This document shows, in pieces, positions 15,453-43,720 of a stretch of 44,062 nt of DNA. The notes under the pieces are model-generated. The model did not search any database and was not told where the DNA came from. It was given only the letters and a program-made list of their open reading frames with translations. Origin of the DNA: a virus (Duplodnaviria > Heunggongvirae > Uroviricota > Caudoviricetes); the IMG/VR virus record IMGVR_UViG_2529292906_000019, positions 1 through 44,062 of that record; one strand, 5' to 3'. Each line of letters begins with the position of its first letter. The first letter of the stretch is position 1. The translations under genes were made by a program, and so were the position numbers.

Positions 15453-16403
15453 TTACGCTACAGGAACGTCCATGTAGGCGATGGTGTTGCCGTACGGGGT
15501 TTCAACCTGGCCCAAACGACCGTAGTAGGTTGTCAGTTGATACAGACCGCGGTATTCCAGCGGGGTATTCAGCAGCGGCACCAGAGGGAAGCGAATGAAC
15601 TTCTCGTCCTGGGTATATGCCACCATGCGATGAGCGCTAGCTGCGCCACGTTTGGAAGCCCACTTCATGGACACGATTTCCAACGGCACGCCGTTCTCCT
15701 GGAACGCGATGCTGTTGATCCTGATGTACTCCATTACGGAGATGTTTCCGGCATCAGAAACTTTACGGCTCACCAGGATGCTGAACAGTTCAGGGGCCAG
15801 GCCGATTTTTGCAGGACAAATGGCATAACCTGAATTTACCCATGCCTGAGACAGCACAAGGTTTACATCCCCGAGAATTTCATCTGGCGTTGTTGCTGGA
15901 TCTGCCCACGCCTTAGCAGCGCTGATTGGTGTTACCTGAGAGAGGTTCAGAAGGCCGGTGACACCCAGATCGTTATCGCCAATGTAAACCTGCTCGTCGA
16001 TGTCCATGTTCCATTTGAGTTGCATGGCATCGTACTTCTGGCTGTCTACCGGGCGTCCTACCTGCTGAGCAGAAGCCAGCTCTGGCAGTGTCCAACCCAG
16101 CTCCATGCCCCACAGGCTCAGTGGTTGAGCGGTCTTCTCGATATAGATATTGGTCTGCGGGATAGCAGTGGAGTTTTTGCCGATCCAGTTTTTGCCGTTC
16201 GGGTTCACACCACCAGCGGCCGCGATATCGGTGTTGGTGAAGGAGGACTGCTCATCAGCGATAGAAACGTCGCTGCGCAGCGGCATATCACGCGACCACT
16301 TATAGCTAACCAGCGGCAGGTTAAGCGTCTGGTCAAGGCGCTCAAGTTCGCCGACCAGGAATACGCCAGCAGCGTCTACGGTGGCTTTATCGATAGTAAA
16401 CAT
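15453..16403 (-). CDS. major capsid protein
   Basis: 316-aa ORF downstream of the scaffold and decoration genes; by size and order. Confidence 0.6.
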   Translation of the reverse strand: MFTIDKATVDAAGVFLVGELERLDQTLNLPLVSYKWSRDMPLRSDVSIADEQSSFTNTDIAAAGGVNPNGKNWIGKNSTAIPQTNIYIEKTAQPLSLWGMELGWTLPELASAQQVGRPVDSQKYDAMQLKWNMDIDEQVYIGDNDLGVTGLLNLSQVTPISAAKAWADPATTPDEILGDVNLVLSQAWVNSGYAICPAKIGLAPELFSILVSRKVSDAGNISVMEYIRINSIAFQENGVPLEIVSMKWASKRGAASAHRMVAYTQDEKFIRFPLVPLLNTPLEYRGLYQLTTYYGRLGQVETPYGNTIAYMDVPVA

Positions 16404-16413
16404 TCATCGTTCC

Positions 16414-16932
16414 TTAGATGTTGTAGGCGATTTCAACGTTGCCGTGGGTGGTGGTTGCTGCTGCATCGCCGGGGCCCATCACTTTCGCAATGGTCAACTC
16501 AGGGGTGTTAGATGCGGTGCCATCAGGAGTTAGTACCACAGAACCTAAAGGACTTGCCGTCGTAGGCGCAGCGACACGGATGTAAACCTTGTCACCCTTC
16601 TTGGCAGTACCGGCCTGAGCCGTAGGAACGGCCACGCAGATATAACCACGCTTCAGTTGGTCTCCTGTGTAGCCAGCCGTTACACCCAGCGCGCAAGCAT
16701 CAGTCGGGTTGGTAGTTGGGTACGGACGAACGAACAGGCCAGCTACGTCAGCAACGGTGTCACCGGCCTCCAGCGGCACGAATTTACCGTTGAGATTCTT
16801 ACCCGCTAGGCCATAAGAAGGGAATGGCTTAGTGGCATCGAGGATTGCAGGCTCTGCGGTGAGGTCCTGTGGACGAGTAACGGCACCAGGGAAACCGATC
16901 CCCATACGAGTTAAATAAGCTTTACCAGCCAT
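16414..16932 (-). CDS. head decoration / structural protein
   Basis: 172-aa Gly/Thr/Ala-rich ORF immediately upstream of the capsid gene. Confidence 0.4.
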   Translation of the reverse strand: MAGKAYLTRMGIGFPGAVTRPQDLTAEPAILDATKPFPSYGLAGKNLNGKFVPLEAGDTVADVAGLFVRPYPTTNPTDACALGVTAGYTGDQLKRGYICVAVPTAQAGTAKKGDKVYIRVAAPTTASPLGSVVLTPDGTASNTPELTIAKVMGPGDAAATTTHGNVEIAYNI

Positions 16933-16943
16933 TGTTGGTTACC

Positions 16944-18107
16944 TTATTGGTTGCGTTTCCAGAAATCGGCGTTGATTTTGTTCAGCTCAGCCGGGGACAT
17001 AGGGCCGCGAGCGCGATCACCAGTTGGTTTGCCAGATGGCGGGGTGATCCGATTTTTGGCTTTGTTCAGTTCCAGCGCGCCGCTGAATACCGCGTCCACC
17101 TTGGCTTTCGGCACCTTGTCATAGTCCTGAATGCCAAATGACTTGAGGTATGTGCTGTCGCCGGTACGCATCGCGTGATTCAGTACCTGACGCTTCAGGC
17201 CTTTGTCGCCACTAGGCTGGAAGCCTGGACAGATGATCTCCGCGTCACCGATGAGGTTGCGCTTATACGCCGCATCTCCGGTTACCTTCGCATCTTCTTC
17301 TGCGTCTTCATCACCGGTTTTCTTATCCAGATCGGTTTCTTCGTCGGTCGTGGTCTTCTGGTCTGCCGGCAACGCGGTAGCCTGAGAAGGCACGTTCATG
17401 TTGATAGTTAACCCGGGGATCGAACTCATACCGTCTGACGGCATATCGGGAGCTTCATCTGCAAGCTTCGCCAGCGCATCTTCATCTTTGGTGCGAATGG
17501 CATTGGCCAGCTTCTGAAACCAGTTCTGCTGTTTCATGTTGCTTCCTTTGGTTGATGGGGCTGAATCCCCTATGGCACATCGGGAACCAGCCCGCCCGCG
17601 GTCGATACCGACGGCCAGATGGTTGCCTGTGATTTGGTGTTGTTTTCCCTTGCCGGGCGAGAGCTGCTTATAGAGCGCGTCGTATCCGCAGCTGACATCG
17701 GTCAGACCAGCCTCGATTGCGTCGATTGCTTCCAGGCGCTTAACCAGCACGTCGGCAATGAGCAGGTCTGCTTTATCGCCTGTGCCGCGCCTGACGTTCT
17801 GAATATGACCGTGGGCCAGTTCGGAATAGTTGGTGGGGTTAACGAAAAGGATGCCGCCACCAGCGTCTTCTGGGTGCCCCAGCGTGACGGCGACGCCCTC
17901 AAAGCTCGCCATCGTTTCAGGAGAGAACACCTCATCTTCCGTTCGCCAGACAGTGACGGTACCGCTCGCGTCGGGCTCAAGGTCGATTTCTTCCGGCAGA
18001 TAGACCTGAGATCCCGTTCTGGCAATCGGCACGTCCTTGCAGAGCAATGAGCCGTCCGCCATGCGGAACCGGGTTTCCCCGAGCCTGGTCTCAAAAAAGT
18101 ATTTCAT
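16944..18107 (-). CDS. prohead protease / scaffolding protein
   Basis: 387-aa ORF between the MuF-like and capsid genes with an acidic, low-complexity C-terminal half typical of scaffolds. Confidence 0.45.
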   Translation of the reverse strand: MKYFFETRLGETRFRMADGSLLCKDVPIARTGSQVYLPEEIDLEPDASGTVTVWRTEDEVFSPETMASFEGVAVTLGHPEDAGGGILFVNPTNYSELAHGHIQNVRRGTGDKADLLIADVLVKRLEAIDAIEAGLTDVSCGYDALYKQLSPGKGKQHQITGNHLAVGIDRGRAGSRCAIGDSAPSTKGSNMKQQNWFQKLANAIRTKDEDALAKLADEAPDMPSDGMSSIPGLTINMNVPSQATALPADQKTTTDEETDLDKKTGDEDAEEDAKVTGDAAYKRNLIGDAEIICPGFQPSGDKGLKRQVLNHAMRTGDSTYLKSFGIQDYDKVPKAKVDAVFSGALELNKAKNRITPPSGKPTGDRARGPMSPAELNKINADFWKRNQ

Positions 18108-18127
18108 GGGTTACCTGCTGAATTGCG

Positions 18128-18160
18128 GGCAAATAAAAAGGCCTGCATAAGCAGGCCTCT
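18128..18160 (-). terminator. rho-independent terminator-like hairpin
   Basis: Minus strand AGGCCTGCTTATGCAGGCCT followed by TTTTATTTG. Confidence 0.45.
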
Positions 18161-18163
18161 TTC

Positions 18164-18328
18164 TCAGACTAGAAATCCACGTCGCCTCAACTCGACAAGA
18201 ATTGAATCGATAGCACCGTGGATGATGTCAGTGTTGTAATCCTGCGAATTTCCTGACTGATAAATATCATCAAGCAATTTGCGATTGTGCCTTAAGCTGT
18301 CAATAAGTCGTGCGTTGGTAAGTGCCAT
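18164..18328 (-). CDS. small protein of unknown function (54 aa from MALTNARLIDS...)
   Basis: ATG at 18328 preceded by AGGAGG; sits between the MuF-like gene and a terminator; the track ORF extends to 18367. Confidence 0.35.
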   Translation of the reverse strand: MALTNARLIDSLRHNRKLLDDIYQSGNSQDYNTDIIHGAIDSILVELRRRGFLV

Positions 18329-18431
18329 GATGGGCCTCCTTGAATTATAGTTATGAGCATTGCTCACTCTTATTTATCAATTCACGGAGGGAAATCGCTG
18401 GACTTAACAGAAATTTTTTTAGCATTTTGTG

Positions 18432-34428: not shown

Positions 34429-34968
34429 TCATACAGCCCCCAGCATCAACTGCACCATCTCCATCAGCGGACCGGTTAAGCCAGGGTCAACGCGGTACAT
34501 CTCCACGATCCCCTCGCTCAGCTCTTTCAGCTTCTGATGACGCGGCGCATCCATTGCGACAGCTATCTTCGCTTCGCTGGTTTCCTTCTCCATACGTGCC
34601 AGACGGGCCATGACGTTGTCTTCTGGCAGCAGGCGACTGCGGTACACAATCGGCAGAACGGCGAGGATTGCAGGAGTCAGCTGGCGGACGTTCTCGCGGT
34701 AACGTTCGCTGTTGAAATGGTTATCCAGGAAGCGGAAAAGCTTCTGGCGCTTTCGGCAGAGATCGTCAGGGAAAGTGATGTCATCACCACCCTGTGCCTG
34801 GTACTCTTCGATGATCAGAGCCGTAACTACGTCCTGACCATCGGCACCAGCCCAGGAGCGGACCGCGTCACGAATATCTTCGTGGCTCGGCCCCCTACGT
34901 GCTTGAGCGCGATTTATCATTACCCCTTGAGTAATGTCGCTATCATTCTGGTAAGTAAGTGTCTGCAT
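34429..34968 (-). CDS. YdaT-like protein
   Basis: 179 aa; IIEEYQAQGGDDITFP and RQLTPAILAVLPIVYRSRL parallel E. coli Rac YdaT ITEEYLRQGGGELP and QKLIPAILAILPRELRHRL recalled from memory. Confidence 0.5.
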   Translation of the reverse strand: MQTLTYQNDSDITQGVMINRAQARRGPSHEDIRDAVRSWAGADGQDVVTALIIEEYQAQGGDDITFPDDLCRKRQKLFRFLDNHFNSERYRENVRQLTPAILAVLPIVYRSRLLPEDNVMARLARMEKETSEAKIAVAMDAPRHQKLKELSEGIVEMYRVDPGLTGPLMEMVQLMLGAV

Positions 34969-35189: not shown

Positions 35190-35210
35190 AGGACCTCCTT
35201 AAGTGAGCAA

Positions 35211-35229
35211 AGTAAAGCACCAATTTACT
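35211..35229. promoter_or_regulatory. operator (right), 19-bp AGTAAAGCACCAATTTACT
   Basis: Inverted repeat AGTAAA-N7-TTTACT between the divergent cro-like and repressor genes; near-identical in reverse orientation at 36454..36472; adjacent palindrome TATTGAGTCAATA at 35229..35241. Confidence 0.5.
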
Positions 35230-35283
35230 ATTGAGTCAATACACGCCTGCCTACCAACTGGTAAAGCTATTGTTTACAATCCC

Positions 35284-35670
35284 TACATGAACAAAAAAGA
35301 TCCTAACCAGAGCCTTATTTCCAGGCTGACTGAATTGAATGGCAAAGGCTTCTCAAAAACAGAGATGGCCAAGGTTGCTAATGTCAGTAAGCAGGCGGTA
35401 ACCGGATGGTTTAGAACCGGTAAAATCAGCAAAGAATCTGCCCTCGCTGTTGCAGACGCTGCTGGCGTGTCTGTGCCATGGCTACTCGGCGAGGATGTTG
35501 GAGAGAAAGACGGCCTTAAGCCGGACGAACAGCGCCTGCTGGAGCTCTATCGCCAGTTGCCGGAAGAAGAGCAGCAGAACATGCTCCGCATCTTTGCCAT
35601 TCGCCTGAAAGAGTTGGACGAGTTGTATGAGAAATACATGAAGGGGCGTATTCGTTCTCAGGGAGAGTGA
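35284..35670 (+). CDS. prophage repressor, HTH XRE-type (RacR/CI-like, no peptidase domain)
   Basis: HTH segment ...FSKTEMAKVANVSKQAVTGWF...; start set at the internal ATG 35284 so that the operator lies in the intergenic region; the track ORF starts at GTG 35203. Confidence 0.5.
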   Translation, partial: YMNKKDPNQSLISRLTELNGKGFSKTEMAKVANVSKQAVTGWFRTGKISKESALAVADAAGVSVPWLLGEDVGEKDGLKPDEQRLLELYRQLPEEEQQNMLRIFAIRLKELDELYEKYMKGRIRSQGE

Positions 35671-42055: not shown

Positions 42056-42328
42056 ATGGCCAAGCTTCTTAATCTGCAGGAATGGGCGAATTCGACTTAT
42101 TCAACCCCGCCGTCTCTTTCAACACTTCGCCGCTGGGCGCGGGAGGGGCGCATTTACCCTGCTCCGGAACTTCACGGAAAAGAATATAAGGTTCAGCCTG
42201 ACGCCATCTATGTGGATCCGAGCAAAAAGAACCTTCGTCCCAAATCAAAACGCTTAGCGCTGCCAACTGGCGGCACTCTACTGGAGAGACTGACTCATGG
42301 CGAAAAGGCCAGTACGTTACGACGCTAA
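42056..42328 (+). CDS. xis: excisionase (lambda Xis-like)
   Basis: LNLQEWANS...PPSLSTLRRWAREGRIYPAPELHGKEY parallels lambda Xis LTLQEW...RPRSLETVRRWVRECRIFPPPVKDGREY; precedes int with overlap. Confidence 0.65.
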   Translation: MAKLLNLQEWANSTYSTPPSLSTLRRWAREGRIYPAPELHGKEYKVQPDAIYVDPSKKNLRPKSKRLALPTGGTLLERLTHGEKASTLRR

Positions 42329-43382
42329 CCTGCCCCGTAACCTGACCTATCGTAAAAGAGACAGGCTTTATAGCTGGCGAAACCCGATTACCGGTCAAGA
42401 ATTATCTCTTGGCCGGATCGACAGAAAGGACGCCATTTCTCAGGCCATCGAGGCCAACAACTACATCGACCAAAATTACCTTCCGTCAGCGCTGCTTGAC
42501 CGCATAAAGGAAACACCAACATTTACGGTGAAAGCGTGGCTCGAGCGCTACGAAGTAATTCTTGAGCGAAGAGAATTGAAGCCCAACACGATGAAGGTCA
42601 GGCGCAATCAGATCGCCACTATCAGTGATGAATTCGGACGTATGCCGCTATCGGCGGTCAGCACAAAGGACGTATCTACTTTCCTGGAGAGTTACATACT
42701 CTGCGATAAGAAGAGCATGGCCTCTGGCCTGCGATCGGTATTGTTGGATATTTTCAGGGAGGCGATCGTCGAGGGACATATTGAAAGGAACCCGGCAGAG
42801 CCGACAAGAACGCCGACACCAAAAGTGAAGCGTGAGCGTCTTTTGCTCGAGCAGTTTGAGATAATAAGGGATGCCGCAACTGCTCATTCTGGATGGGCTG
42901 CAAATGCATGTGACCTGGCGCTGGTCACCGGGCAGAGAAGAGAGGACGTATCGCTGTTCAGATTCAGCGATATCAGGGATGGAAGATTGTTTGTCACACA
43001 GGAAAAGACAGGTCACAAATTGGCGTTGCCACTTGATTTGCGACTGGACTCTGCTGATTTGGTATTGCAGGATGTTATCGACCGTTGTCGTAAAAACAAC
43101 CCGTCAGACTTCATGCTTTATTCTGCGGTAAGGCGTGGTGGCCGGAAGCCAGGTCCGTTAACTCCGGACGGAATCACCCAAGCATTTTCTGATATCAGGG
43201 ATTCTACAGAGTTAAAGTTTGGCCCCAACCCTCCCCCGTTCCATGAGATCAGGAGCTTGGCGAGCAGGCTCTATGAAAGGGAGCGCGGAGAGGATTTCGC
43301 ACAGAGACTGCTGGGGCATAAAAATTTAACAATGACCAAAAAATACCTGGACGCACGCGGTGCAGAATATGTTATGGTTTAG
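42297..43382 (+). CDS. int: site-specific integrase (tyrosine recombinase, lambda Int family)
   Basis: 361 aa; C-terminal catalytic region ...HEIRSLASRLYERERG...RLLGHKNLTMTKKYLDARG (conserved R, H-x-x-R and Y); adjacent to attR. Confidence 0.85.
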   Translation: MAKRPVRYDANLPRNLTYRKRDRLYSWRNPITGQELSLGRIDRKDAISQAIEANNYIDQNYLPSALLDRIKETPTFTVKAWLERYEVILERRELKPNTMKVRRNQIATISDEFGRMPLSAVSTKDVSTFLESYILCDKKSMASGLRSVLLDIFREAIVEGHIERNPAEPTRTPTPKVKRERLLLEQFEIIRDAATAHSGWAANACDLALVTGQRREDVSLFRFSDIRDGRLFVTQEKTGHKLALPLDLRLDSADLVLQDVIDRCRKNNPSDFMLYSAVRRGGRKPGPLTPDGITQAFSDIRDSTELKFGPNPPPFHEIRSLASRLYERERGEDFAQRLLGHKNLTMTKKYLDARGAEYVMV

Positions 43383-43455: not shown

Positions 43456-43485
43456 AGATAAAAAGAGACCGAATACGATTCCTGT
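43456..43485. repeat. prophage attachment site attR (integrase side), within the sdsR 3' end
   Basis: AGATAAAAAGAGACCGAATACGATTCCTGT; direct repeat of 1064..1093 with one mismatch. Confidence 0.6.
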
Positions 43486-43562
43486 ATTCGGTCCAGGGAA
43501 ATGGCTCTTGGGAGAGAGCCGTGCGCTAAAAGTTGGCATTAATGCAGGCTTAGTTGCCTTGC
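43458..43562 (-). ncRNA. sdsR: small RNA SdsR (RyeB)
   Basis: The minus strand reads GCAAGGCAACTAAGCCTGCATTAATGCC...GACCGAATACAGGAATCGTATTCGGTCTCTTTTT, matching SdsR as recalled, with a terminal hairpin and U-tract; CTATTCTTAA (sigma-S type -10) lies just upstream at ~43566..43576. Confidence 0.75.
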
Positions 43563-43720
43563 CCTTTAAGAATAGATGACGACGCCAGGTTTTCCAGTTT
43601 GCGTGCAAAATGGTCAATAAAAAGCGCGGTAGTCATCAGCTTAAATGTTAAAAACCGCCCGTTCTGGTGAAAGAACTGAGGCGGTTTTTTTATTGGAAAT
43701 CAAAAGGCTATTTTAGGTAA

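What the first reader, a model, noticed from the sequence alone, without database searches (positions are those of the whole stretch)
18128..18367. Small gene with a perfect SD and its own terminator inserted between the MuF-like and scaffold genes
A 54-aa ORF (MALTNARLIDS...) with AGGAGG spacing is followed by a hairpin terminator inside the head operon, which is an atypical place for termination. It looks like a small accessory gene or a head-module variant.
Basis: seen in the sequence. Interest (0 to 1): 0.25.

Follow-up and report, generated by a model that had tools for sequence, protein, structure and literature searches.

The report
Small mobile accessory gene in phage head operon
The small gene is real, but it is not a head part: it is a roughly 300-base stand-alone gene cassette of unknown function that also occurs on small ColE1-type plasmids and at other junctions of related phage operons, which makes it an ordinary phage "moron" with an unusually wide distribution.

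Summary
On the minus strand there is a 54-aa ORF (18328-18164). AGGAGG sits 6 nt before its ATG, and a strong intrinsic-terminator hairpin (18162-18131) follows it. The ORF lies between the MuF-like gene and the DUF2213 protease/scaffold gene.

The ORF is a real gene. Homologues are always 53-54 aa, and median dN/dS is 0.14.

It is not a head component:
- Close relatives with about 97% identical flanks lack exactly this ~273-bp block.
- Distant family members occupy the terS/terL and terL/portal junctions of related prophages.
- Many members lie on small ColE1-type mobilizable plasmids, with the same upstream motif plus hairpin, SD, ORF and covarying terminator.

The cassette has 41% GC against 56-59% in the flanking genes.

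A terminator here is normal. 96 of 128 related head modules have a hairpin plus T-run at this junction, cargo or not. The prophage also encodes a Q antiterminator.

No conserved sigma-70 promoter was found. The product is a soluble two-helix hairpin with no known family or informative fold match, so its function is unknown. My best guess is a host- or defence-modulating protein that benefits mobile elements.

Verdict: a moron-type accessory cassette, a new member of a known kind, of modest interest.

The parts
18432..19277 (-). MuF-like head morphogenesis gene. This is the upstream neighbour, not part of the cassette. Gene callers on identical contigs start it at about 19016.
   Evidence: Pfam PF04233 E 4.4e-13 and phrog_324 E 1e-77. 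Gene calls on L004-L008.
18420..18434 (-). H1: small hairpin TAGCA-CAAAA-TGCTA that overlaps the MuF stop codon TAG (18434-18432). It marks the left end of the cassette. AAATAGCAC..TGCTAAA is shared by phage copies at three different junctions.
   Evidence: Sequence. Same element in L152 and L155 and in all MuF-slot copies. The insertion's left junction lies at AAAT(A).
18354..18380 (-). Conserved upstream element TTGATAAATA-AGAG-TGAGC-AAT-GCTCA (TAAATA motif plus hairpin H2). It is shared by phage and plasmid copies. Its role is unknown: weak or extended -10, RNA 5' stem-loop or processing site, or a protein-binding palindrome.
   Evidence: Alignments. RNAalifold predicts the stem but finds no compensatory changes. 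No consistently placed sigma-70 promoter.
18335..18340 (-). Shine-Dalgarno AGGAGG, 6 nt before the ATG. GGAG is conserved in nearly all of the 13 cassettes compared.
18164..18328 (-). 54-aa ORF (stop included). The product is a soluble two-helix hairpin protein, phrog_35409, with no Pfam, NCBIfam or PADLOC family.
   Evidence: dN/dS 0.14. AF2 mean pLDDT 87.4, helices 5-31 and 33-49. pI 6.7, GRAVY -0.28, no hydrophobic segment.
18131..18162 (-). Intrinsic terminator of the cassette: stem (AAAG)AGGCCTGC / GCAGGCCT(TTTT), loop TTAT, T-rich tail. It occupies the place of the resident junction hairpin seen in cargo-less relatives.
   Evidence: dG -20.7, z -4.07. Covariation. Homologous stems on plasmids. 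Right junction of the insertion.
18108..18130 (-). Native leader of the DUF2213 gene, GCCCGCAATTCAGCAGGTAACCC, with its SD. It is conserved whether or not cargo is present and is not part of the cassette.
16944..18107 (-). DUF2213 / Pa193_gp24 head protease-scaffold gene. This is the downstream neighbour.
   Evidence: Pfam PF09979 E 1.5e-37. phrog_1961 and phrog_530 (head maturation protease).
25578..26267 (-). Q antiterminator gene of the prophage. It lies upstream of the lysis genes and the late operon on the same strand, and explains why terminators are tolerated inside the head operon.
   Evidence: Pfam PF06323 E 1.8e-94. Gene order.

Best explanation
Window 18434-18131 (minus strand) is a self-contained, horizontally mobile accessory gene cassette, a 'moron' in phage terms. 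It has been inserted into a hypervariable slot between the MuF-like gene and the DUF2213 protease/scaffold gene of a lambdoid-regulated prophage.

The cassette consists of, in order:
- a small hairpin (H1);
- a conserved TAAATA motif plus hairpin (H2);
- a strong SD;
- a 54-aa ORF;
- its own Rho-independent terminator.

Shown:
- The ORF is a real protein-coding gene under purifying selection.
- The block is absent from close relatives.
- It has foreign base composition.
- The same unit occurs on ColE1-type mobilizable plasmids and at two other junctions of related late operons.
- The terminator structure is conserved by compensatory change.

Inferred:
- During lytic growth the gene is transcribed with the late operon, because it is co-oriented with it and Q-modified RNA polymerase ignores the terminator.
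- Without Q, the terminator insulates the downstream head genes.
- Whether the cassette also has its own promoter is open.

The product is a small soluble alpha-helical hairpin that plays no part in head assembly. It most likely acts by binding a host or rival-element macromolecule to the benefit of whichever mobile element carries it. My best guess is counter-defence or modulation of host physiology. That last step is inference from distribution and size only.
For: Gene reality: 9 DNA homologues are all 54 aa. Median dN/dS is 0.14, and third positions vary in 47 of 54 codons. The whole protein matches phrog_35409 (E 2e-35).

Insertion: compared with cargo-less relatives L058, L057 and L020, whose MuF and DUF2213 ends are about 88-98% identical, the window carries a clean ~273-bp extra block.

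Slot survey of 128 loci: the gap ranges from 1 to 968 nt. It can hold nothing, only a hairpin, a ~261-nt filler, an HNH endonuclease, or various genes with no known family.

Composition: cassette 40.9% GC, against 59.5% for MuF and 56.1% for DUF2213.

Mobility:
- P0011 lies between terL and portal in a prophage whose head genes are 70-82% identical to the window.
- P0016 lies between terS and terL.
- Both have the same H1, TTGATAAATA-hairpin and terminator.

Plasmids:
- 58-60 PLSDB records hold a homologue, and 54-56 of them are typed mobilizable.
- P0035 is listed in 1757 index blocks on 2-20 kb contigs carrying MobC and a relaxase-sized gene.
- The P0041-type plasmids additionally carry Rop.
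- Plasmid-phage DNA homology spans exactly the TAAATA motif to the terminator.

Terminator: dG -20.7, z -4.07. 96.7% of cells are paired, 4 pairs show double changes, and 0 of 500 shuffles reach that value.

Read-through: Q antiterminator PF06323, E 1.8e-94.

Protein: AF2 mean pLDDT 87.4, two helices. No TM segment and pI 6.7.
Against: - No recognisable sigma-70 promoter is conserved upstream. The perfect TATAAT at 18349-18344 is 3 nt from the SD and is not conserved. One classic moron feature, an own promoter with expression in the lysogen, is therefore unproven.
- No expression data of any kind were available.
- A terminator hairpin at this junction also exists without cargo, so part of the 'cassette terminator' could be resident sequence reshaped by recombination.
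- The cassette is rare: 5 IMG/VR loci, 0 of 37 GTDB representatives, and 0 of 5426 complete E. coli genomes. Selection for it in phages may therefore be weak.
Confidence: 0.8

Rival explanations
1. Promoter-less passenger gene. The cassette has no promoter of its own and is expressed only by read-through from whatever operon it lands in: the Q-dependent late operon in phages, mob or other transcripts on plasmids. The conserved AUAAAUA motif plus H2 stem-loop would then act at the RNA level as an RNase E-type processing site and 5' stabiliser. The protein would be a late-infection function, not a lysogenic-conversion function.
For: - No consistently placed sigma-70 promoter in 13 cassettes, and none on the minus strand of the window region.
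- Plasmid-phage homology starts at the TAAATA motif, leaving no room for a conserved -35.
- In all three phage junctions, and on the Mob plasmids, the gene is co-oriented with the upstream genes.
- The spacing between the two halves of H2 varies by 1-6 nt, which fits an RNA stem better than a protein operator.
Against: - In Rahnella plasmid pHW30076 the upstream gene is on the opposite strand.
- On plasmids the gene is preceded by 400-650 nt of non-coding DNA with terminator-like A/T hairpins, which suggests independent transcription.
- H2 shows no compensatory changes.
- The phage copies have TG one base before TAAATA, which could be a weak extended -10.
Confidence: 0.35
2. Head-assembly accessory protein, or a variant of the head module: a small scaffold, chaperone or decoration-type factor needed by this particular capsid.
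For: Position inside the head gene cluster and co-orientation with it. Synteny between MuF and DUF2213 holds across E. coli, Pectobacterium and Providencia phage PSTCR3.
Against: - Relatives with about 97% identical flanking proteins lack it entirely.
- Only 2 of 80 IMG/VR and 0 of 37 GTDB related modules carry it.
- Family members sit at other junctions and on ColE1-type plasmids that build no capsid.
- Its GC content is foreign.
Confidence: 0.03
3. Immunity or antidote partner. Either the small protein neutralises a toxin domain carried by the adjacent MuF protein (MuF polymorphic-toxin systems), or it is the toxin or antitoxin of a small TA or antisense-controlled module.
For: - Genes directly downstream of MuF are immunity genes in MuF polymorphic-toxin phages (my own knowledge: Jamet et al. 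2017, not checked here).
- The size is typical of TA components.
- A weak terminator-like hairpin exists on the opposite strand at H2.
Against: - The MuF protein here ends right after the MuF domain (Pfam match 165-270 of 281 aa) and has no extra C-terminal domain.
- The gene moves independently of MuF, to the terS/terL and terL/portal junctions and to plasmids.
- It is hydrophilic with no membrane segment, unlike type I toxins.
- No partner ORF is conserved. All other frames contain stops.
- There is no PADLOC or Pfam TA match above noise.
Confidence: 0.04
4. Chance ORF in AT-rich intergenic filler, so that only the hairpin matters.
For: The most common content of this slot in relatives is a ~261-nt stretch without a conserved ORF.
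Against: dN/dS is 0.14 with near-saturated synonymous sites, the length is fixed, and the SD is conserved. The 56 family proteins found have profile E-values from 6e-8 to 4e-28.
Confidence: 0.01

Closest known systems
Morons of lambdoid phages (single genes with their own signals inserted between adjacent late genes; definition as quoted in PMC4378225, which cites Juhala et al. 2000 and Hendrix)
   Same: - A single small ORF lies between two genes that are adjacent in related phages.
- GC content is lower than in the flanks.
- It is followed by an intrinsic terminator.
- The host phage uses Q antitermination, so late transcription is not blocked.
- It is dispensable for morphogenesis.
   Different: - No recognisable promoter was found.
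- The same unit, including its non-coding hairpins, is shared with ColE1-type plasmids.
- It is found at three different late-operon junctions.
- The junction it occupies carries a terminator hairpin even when empty.
Anti-CRISPR operons of Mu-like Pseudomonas phages (between the Mu G homologue and the protease/scaffold gene; PMC3993853)
   Same: - The position is analogous: a variable, low-GC accessory locus just upstream of the head protease/scaffold gene.
- The proteins are very small and have no known family.
- Homologues also occur on other mobile elements.
   Different: - No aca-type HTH regulator gene at the 3' end.
- No conserved -35/-10 promoter.
- No sequence or informative fold similarity to any solved Acr in PDB searches.
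- Anti-CRISPR activity is untested.
Rop/Rom of ColE1 (PF01815)
   Same: It is about 55-63 aa, a two-helix antiparallel hairpin, and is carried on ColE1-type plasmids. The top Foldseek PDB matches are Rop variants.
   Different: - Those matches are not significant (E about 5).
- There is no Pfam Rop match.
- The P0041-type plasmids carry a genuine rop gene as well, so this is not a Rop replacement.
PHROG family phrog_35409
   Same: Full-length match (1-54 of 54, E 2.2e-35). This is the family the protein belongs to.
   Different: The family is annotated 'unknown function' and is only a clustering label. It says nothing about mechanism.

Membership tests
Phage moron | Inserted between two genes that are adjacent in related phages | tested here: met
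   Cargo-less relatives have MuF and DUF2213 1-52 nt apart. The window has a clean ~273-bp extra block.
Phage moron | Nucleotide composition different from neighbouring genes | tested here: met
   40.9% GC, against 59.5% and 56.1% in the neighbours.
Phage moron | Own transcription terminator downstream | tested here: met
   Hairpin plus T-run, dG -20.7, z -4.07. The stem is homologous and covaries in phage and plasmid copies.
Phage moron | Own promoter upstream | tested here: inconclusive
   No consensus sigma-70 site on the gene's strand. None is consistently placed in 13 cassettes. A conserved TAAATA-hairpin element of unknown role is present.
Phage moron | Expressed from the repressed prophage (lysogenic conversion) | not testable with these tools
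   This needs transcript or protein data from lysogens.
Anti-CRISPR (acr-aca) locus | Associated aca gene encoding an HTH regulator | tested here: not met
   The slot holds a single ORF. No HTH gene lies between MuF and DUF2213, nor next to the other phage copies.
Anti-CRISPR (acr-aca) locus | Inhibition of a CRISPR-Cas system | not testable with these tools
   This needs plaque or transformation assays.
Rop/Rom (PF01815) | Sequence match to the Rop family | tested here: not met
   No Pfam hit at E <= 1 in any of 19 members. Foldseek E about 5.
MuF polymorphic-toxin immunity protein | Upstream MuF protein carries a C-terminal toxin domain | tested here: not met
   The MuF domain spans residues 165-270 of 281, and nothing follows it.
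Type I toxin-antitoxin | Small hydrophobic membrane peptide with a conserved antisense RNA | tested here: not met
   GRAVY -0.28, maximum KD over a 15-residue window 1.07, no TM segment. No Rfam match above noise.
Defence systems (PADLOC) | Match to a known defence-system protein model | tested here: not met
   0 families at E <= 1.

The most novel reading that the evidence does not exclude
The ~300-bp unit (H1, TAAATA motif plus H2, SD, 54-aa ORF, terminator) may be a previously undescribed miniature gene cassette. It circulates between ColE1-type plasmids and at least three junctions of phage late operons. Its conserved non-coding hairpins would be functional, either for context-independent expression or for its movement. 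Its product would be a new family of small counter-defence or host-takeover proteins useful to both plasmids and phages.
Probability: 0.2. Interest if true: 0.6.

Novelty: new member of a known kind. Interest (0 to 1): 0.33.

Why it matters
For annotating this prophage, the result is reassuring. The head operon is intact, the internal terminator is normal for this phage group, and the extra ORF is a passenger.

The wider point is modest but real. A tiny uncharacterised gene family is very common on small enterobacterial Mob plasmids; one variant is listed in more than 1700 index blocks. It is usually unannotated there. The same family turns up, with its flanking hairpins, in temperate-phage late operons.

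Genes shared by unrelated mobile elements and kept under purifying selection are good candidates for anti-defence or host-manipulation functions. At 54 aa, this one is cheap to test.

The survey also defines the MuF/DUF2213 junction of this phage group as an insertion hot spot, bounded by a conserved terminator hairpin.

Tried and rejected
- **Family searches** of the 54-aa protein and its relatives. Pfam, NCBIfam and PADLOC gave nothing usable.
- **PDB sequence profile search**: only chance hits with E >= 0.3.
- **Rfam**, at gathering and permissive thresholds, on the window slot and on the common filler: only sub-threshold, terminator-driven matches.
- **Promoter hunting**, with the consensus scanner and a looser scan of 13 cassettes: no conserved site. 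The attractive TATAAT at 18349-18344 was rejected because it is not conserved and lies 3 nt from the SD.
- **RNAalifold on the junction hairpins** of 20 modules failed because MAFFT misaligned the variable loops. I replaced it with an anchored hairpin search and with the count of structure pairs on equal-length cassette terminators.
- **Covariation in H2**: none found, so the result is inconclusive.
- **Alternative cargoes of the slot**, scanned for known functions: only an HNH endonuclease was recognised.
- **Is the ~261-nt filler a decayed copy of the cassette?** No. Similarity is limited to the last ~36 nt.
- **Literature**: no paper describing the protein was found. The Rahnella small-plasmid paper does not mention it.

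Full report
**1. What is in the sequence**

All genes in this part of the window run on the minus strand. The order is:
- small terminase, 21758-22465;
- large terminase, 20514-21722;
- portal, 19027-20541;
- MuF-like gene, 18432-19277;
- the small ORF;
- DUF2213/Pa193_gp24 protease-scaffold gene, 16944-18107;
- cement protein, 16414-16932;
- major capsid protein, 15453-16403.

The small ORF starts at ATG 18328 and ends at TGA 18166-18164, encoding 54 aa. AGGAGG (18340-18335) lies 6 nt before the ATG.

Directly after the stop lies AGGCCTGC-TTAT-GCAGGCCT, followed by TTTTATTT. RNAfold gives a 12-bp stem with dG -20.7 kcal/mol, z = -4.07, and no shuffle as stable. The simple scanner did not report this hairpin. 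I think its stem extension would consume the T-run, but that reason is my inference.

**2. It is a real gene**

Only a small family was found at first: 9 clusters, all exactly 54 aa and 72-100% identical. They come from E. coli, Pectobacterium, Enterobacter and Providencia phage PSTCR3, where the gene is unannotated.

Nine DNA homologues give a median dN/dS of 0.14. Synonymous sites are close to saturation. Variable columns by codon position number 21/19/47, and every other frame is broken by stops. The protein matches phrog_35409 (unknown function) end to end.

**3. It is an insertion into a hypervariable slot**

I fetched 117 related head modules through the DUF2213 protein. In 128 loci I measured the gap between the MuF stop and the DUF2213 start. 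The gap ranges from 1 to 968 nt and holds very different things:
- nothing (1-3 nt);
- only a hairpin (46-52 nt);
- a ~261-nt filler, the commonest state, about 88% identical among 46 variants and without a conserved ORF;
- an HNH endonuclease;
- several genes with no known family, including one on the opposite strand in E. coli Res13;
- the 54-aa gene.

The 54-aa gene is present in only 2 of the 80 IMG/VR loci and in none of the 37 GTDB species representatives.

Against cargo-less relatives whose flanking protein ends are about 88-98% identical (L058, L057, L020), the window shows a clean ~273-bp extra block. The left junction is at the AAAT(A) of the MuF stop codon. The right junction is in the hairpin/T-run.

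The block has 40.9% GC, against 59.5% for MuF and 56.1% for DUF2213.

**4. The terminator is not out of place**

In 96 of 128 loci a GC-rich hairpin plus T-run lies within 58 nt of the DUF2213 ATG, including loci with no cargo at all. The stems differ: GGTCGC/GCGGCC, GGCCGCC/GGTGGCC, CCCAGC/GCTGGG, GACCGCC/GGCGGTT. A terminator-like hairpin is thus a standing feature of this junction.

The prophage has a lambda-type Q antiterminator (25578-26267, PF06323, E 1.8e-94). It lies upstream of the lysis genes and the morphogenesis operon on the same strand. From established knowledge of lambdoid late transcription, Q-modified polymerase reads through intrinsic terminators, so the hairpin need not interrupt head gene expression. 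This step is inferred, not tested.

**5. The unit is a cassette that exists elsewhere**

A profile search of 1.84 billion representatives, and a second search of the large protein collection, extended the family to 56 clusters of mostly 52-66 aa. These have the conserved pattern L..L.HN..L...I..SG....YN..I...A..I..ELRRRG.

The distant members fall into two further contexts.

*(a) Small ColE1-type mobilizable plasmids*
- P0035 is listed in 1757 index blocks on contigs of mostly 2-10 kb, with MobC/NikA and a 498-aa relaxase-sized gene that has no Pfam hit on record.
- P0041 is on plasmids with Rop, MobC, MbeA/B/D, 435-670 nt downstream of mbeD.
- tblastn finds 58-60 PLSDB records, of which 54-56 are typed mobilizable. 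Most are unannotated at this spot.
- ColE1 itself has exc1/exc2 annotated in the corresponding region. I did not search it for the family.

*(b) Other junctions of related prophages*
- P0016 lies between terS and terL (Prodigiosinella).
- P0011 lies between terL and portal, in a prophage whose terL, portal, MuF and DUF2213 are 70-82% identical to the window. Its MuF/DUF2213 gap is only about 41 nt.

The non-coding parts travel with the ORF:
- All phage copies share AAATAGCAC-N4-5-TGCTAAA (H1).
- They also share TTGATAAATA-N3-4-GTGAGC-loop-GCTCAT (motif plus H2).
- Plasmid copies share the TAAATA motif, H2, GGAG, the ORF and a terminator with the same GCCCGC-loop-GCGGGC stem. Plasmid-phage DNA similarity begins at the motif and ends at the T-run.

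On nine cassettes the terminator stem is 96.7% paired, with four pairs changed on both sides. No shuffle out of 500 reached that, and the slid controls are far lower.

It replaced, or recombined with, the resident hairpin. Similarity to cargo-less slots and to the filler resumes at the 3' arm/T-run.

**6. What remains open: the promoter**

The consensus scan finds no sigma-70 site on the gene's strand. A looser scan of 13 cassettes finds none at a consistent position. The perfect TATAAT at 18349-18344 is 3 nt from the SD and is not conserved.

The conserved TAAATA is preceded by TG-N in the phage copies, which could make a weak extended -10. It lacks the usual final T.

H2 is predicted by RNAalifold but shows no compensatory change. 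It could therefore be an RNA stem or a DNA palindrome. The variable spacing of its halves favours RNA.

In every phage junction, and on the Mob plasmids, the gene is co-oriented with the upstream genes, which fits expression by read-through. A Rahnella plasmid is an exception. I therefore keep "promoter-less passenger" as a serious variant (0.35).

**7. The protein**

AlphaFold2 with the 9-sequence alignment gives mean pLDDT 87.4 and two helices, 5-31 and 33-49. The protein is soluble (GRAVY -0.28), near neutral (pI 6.7), and has no membrane segment.

The P0041-type plasmids also carry a genuine rop, so this is not a Rop substitute.

Function is therefore unknown. The protein is kept under purifying selection on two unrelated kinds of mobile element and is irrelevant to capsids. 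I therefore infer a small binding protein that helps the element in the host cell: counter-defence, host modulation or competition. This is a guess from distribution, with perhaps 0.3 for counter-defence specifically.

**8. Comparison with known systems**

The closest concept is the lambdoid moron, as defined in PMC4378225. Four of its features were tested. Three are met (insertion between adjacent genes, deviant composition, terminator). One, the promoter, is inconclusive.

The position resembles the anti-CRISPR locus of Mu-like Pseudomonas phages, which lies between the Mu G homologue and the protease/scaffold gene (PMC3993853). However, the defining aca HTH gene and the conserved promoter are absent, and activity is untested.

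MuF-toxin immunity is excluded because the MuF protein has no toxin domain. A type I toxin is excluded by hydropathy.

**9. Verdict**

The "accessory gene" reading is supported. The "head-module variant" and "atypical terminator" readings are not.

This is a new member of a known kind, a moron-type accessory cassette. The less ordinary twist is that the same miniature cassette, hairpins included, is shared with ColE1-type plasmids and sits at three different late-operon junctions. Interest is modest (0.33). It would rise if the protein proved to be a counter-defence factor, or if the conserved hairpins proved to drive expression or movement.

Noticed in passing
window 18108-18431; loci L020-L136 around position 2001: In this phage group the MuF/DUF2213 junction is an insertion hot spot. 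The gap ranges from 1 to 968 nt and holds at least a dozen unrelated contents, including an HNH endonuclease, several genes with no known family, and one gene on the opposite strand. 96 of 128 loci keep a terminator-like hairpin plus T-run right before the conserved DUF2213 leader, even when the slot is otherwise empty.
   Followed up: yes
L002 2273-2537; L026 and about 50 further loci, about 1740-2000: The commonest content of the slot is a ~261-nt AT-rich filler. It is about 88% identical among 46 variants, has no conserved ORF and no Rfam match. It contains repeated AATGTT(G) motifs and ends in the junction hairpin. Its nature (RNA gene, regulatory region or decayed gene) is unexplained.
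   Followed up: partly
window 18112-18131 (minus strand): RNAalifold predicts a conserved small stem, TGCCCGC-AATTCA-GCAGGTA, that would pair the Shine-Dalgarno region of the DUF2213 gene immediately after the terminator. It is too invariant to test by covariation.
   Followed up: no
L152 4001-4162; L155 4001-4165: Distant members of the same gene family, with the same flanking hairpins, sit between terS and terL (Prodigiosinella prophage) and between terL and portal (a prophage with 70-82% identical head genes). The cassette is therefore not tied to one junction.
   Followed up: yes
L149 2855-3165 (plasmid pRHB38-C24_7) and similar plasmids: On P0041-type ColE1 plasmids the gene starts about 110 nt downstream of a cer-like Xer core (GGTGCGGGCAACGGGAGTTATGGTAAAT). 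It is mostly unannotated in public plasmid records, although the family is very common on small enterobacterial Mob plasmids.
   Followed up: partly
window 22786-23169 (+ strand): A 127-aa ORF with no Pfam or PADLOC match lies on the opposite strand between the lysis genes and the small terminase gene. It is another candidate accessory insertion in the late region.
   Followed up: no
window 43456-43600: The SraC/RyeA and SdsR/RyeB sRNA pair (Rfam 178 and 116 bits) lies just beyond the integrase gene (42297-43382). This marks the host flank and the likely attachment region of the prophage.
   Followed up: no
L002 (OM284015.1, 'Elizabethkingia phage EKP1') and L042 (Chryseobacterium sp. 18061 contig): Two records attributed to Flavobacteriales carry a head module whose proteins are about 78-88% identical to those of enterobacterial prophages. 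For EKP1 the DUF2213 gene is also 79% identical at the DNA level. The host assignment or the purity of these records looks doubtful.
   Followed up: no
window 34429-34968 and 35203-35670: A YdaT_toxin-domain gene sits next to a divergently oriented cI-type repressor gene. This fits a Rac/YdaS-YdaT-type immunity region in this lambdoid prophage, which combines lambdoid regulation with an E217/Pa193-like myovirus structural module.
   Followed up: no
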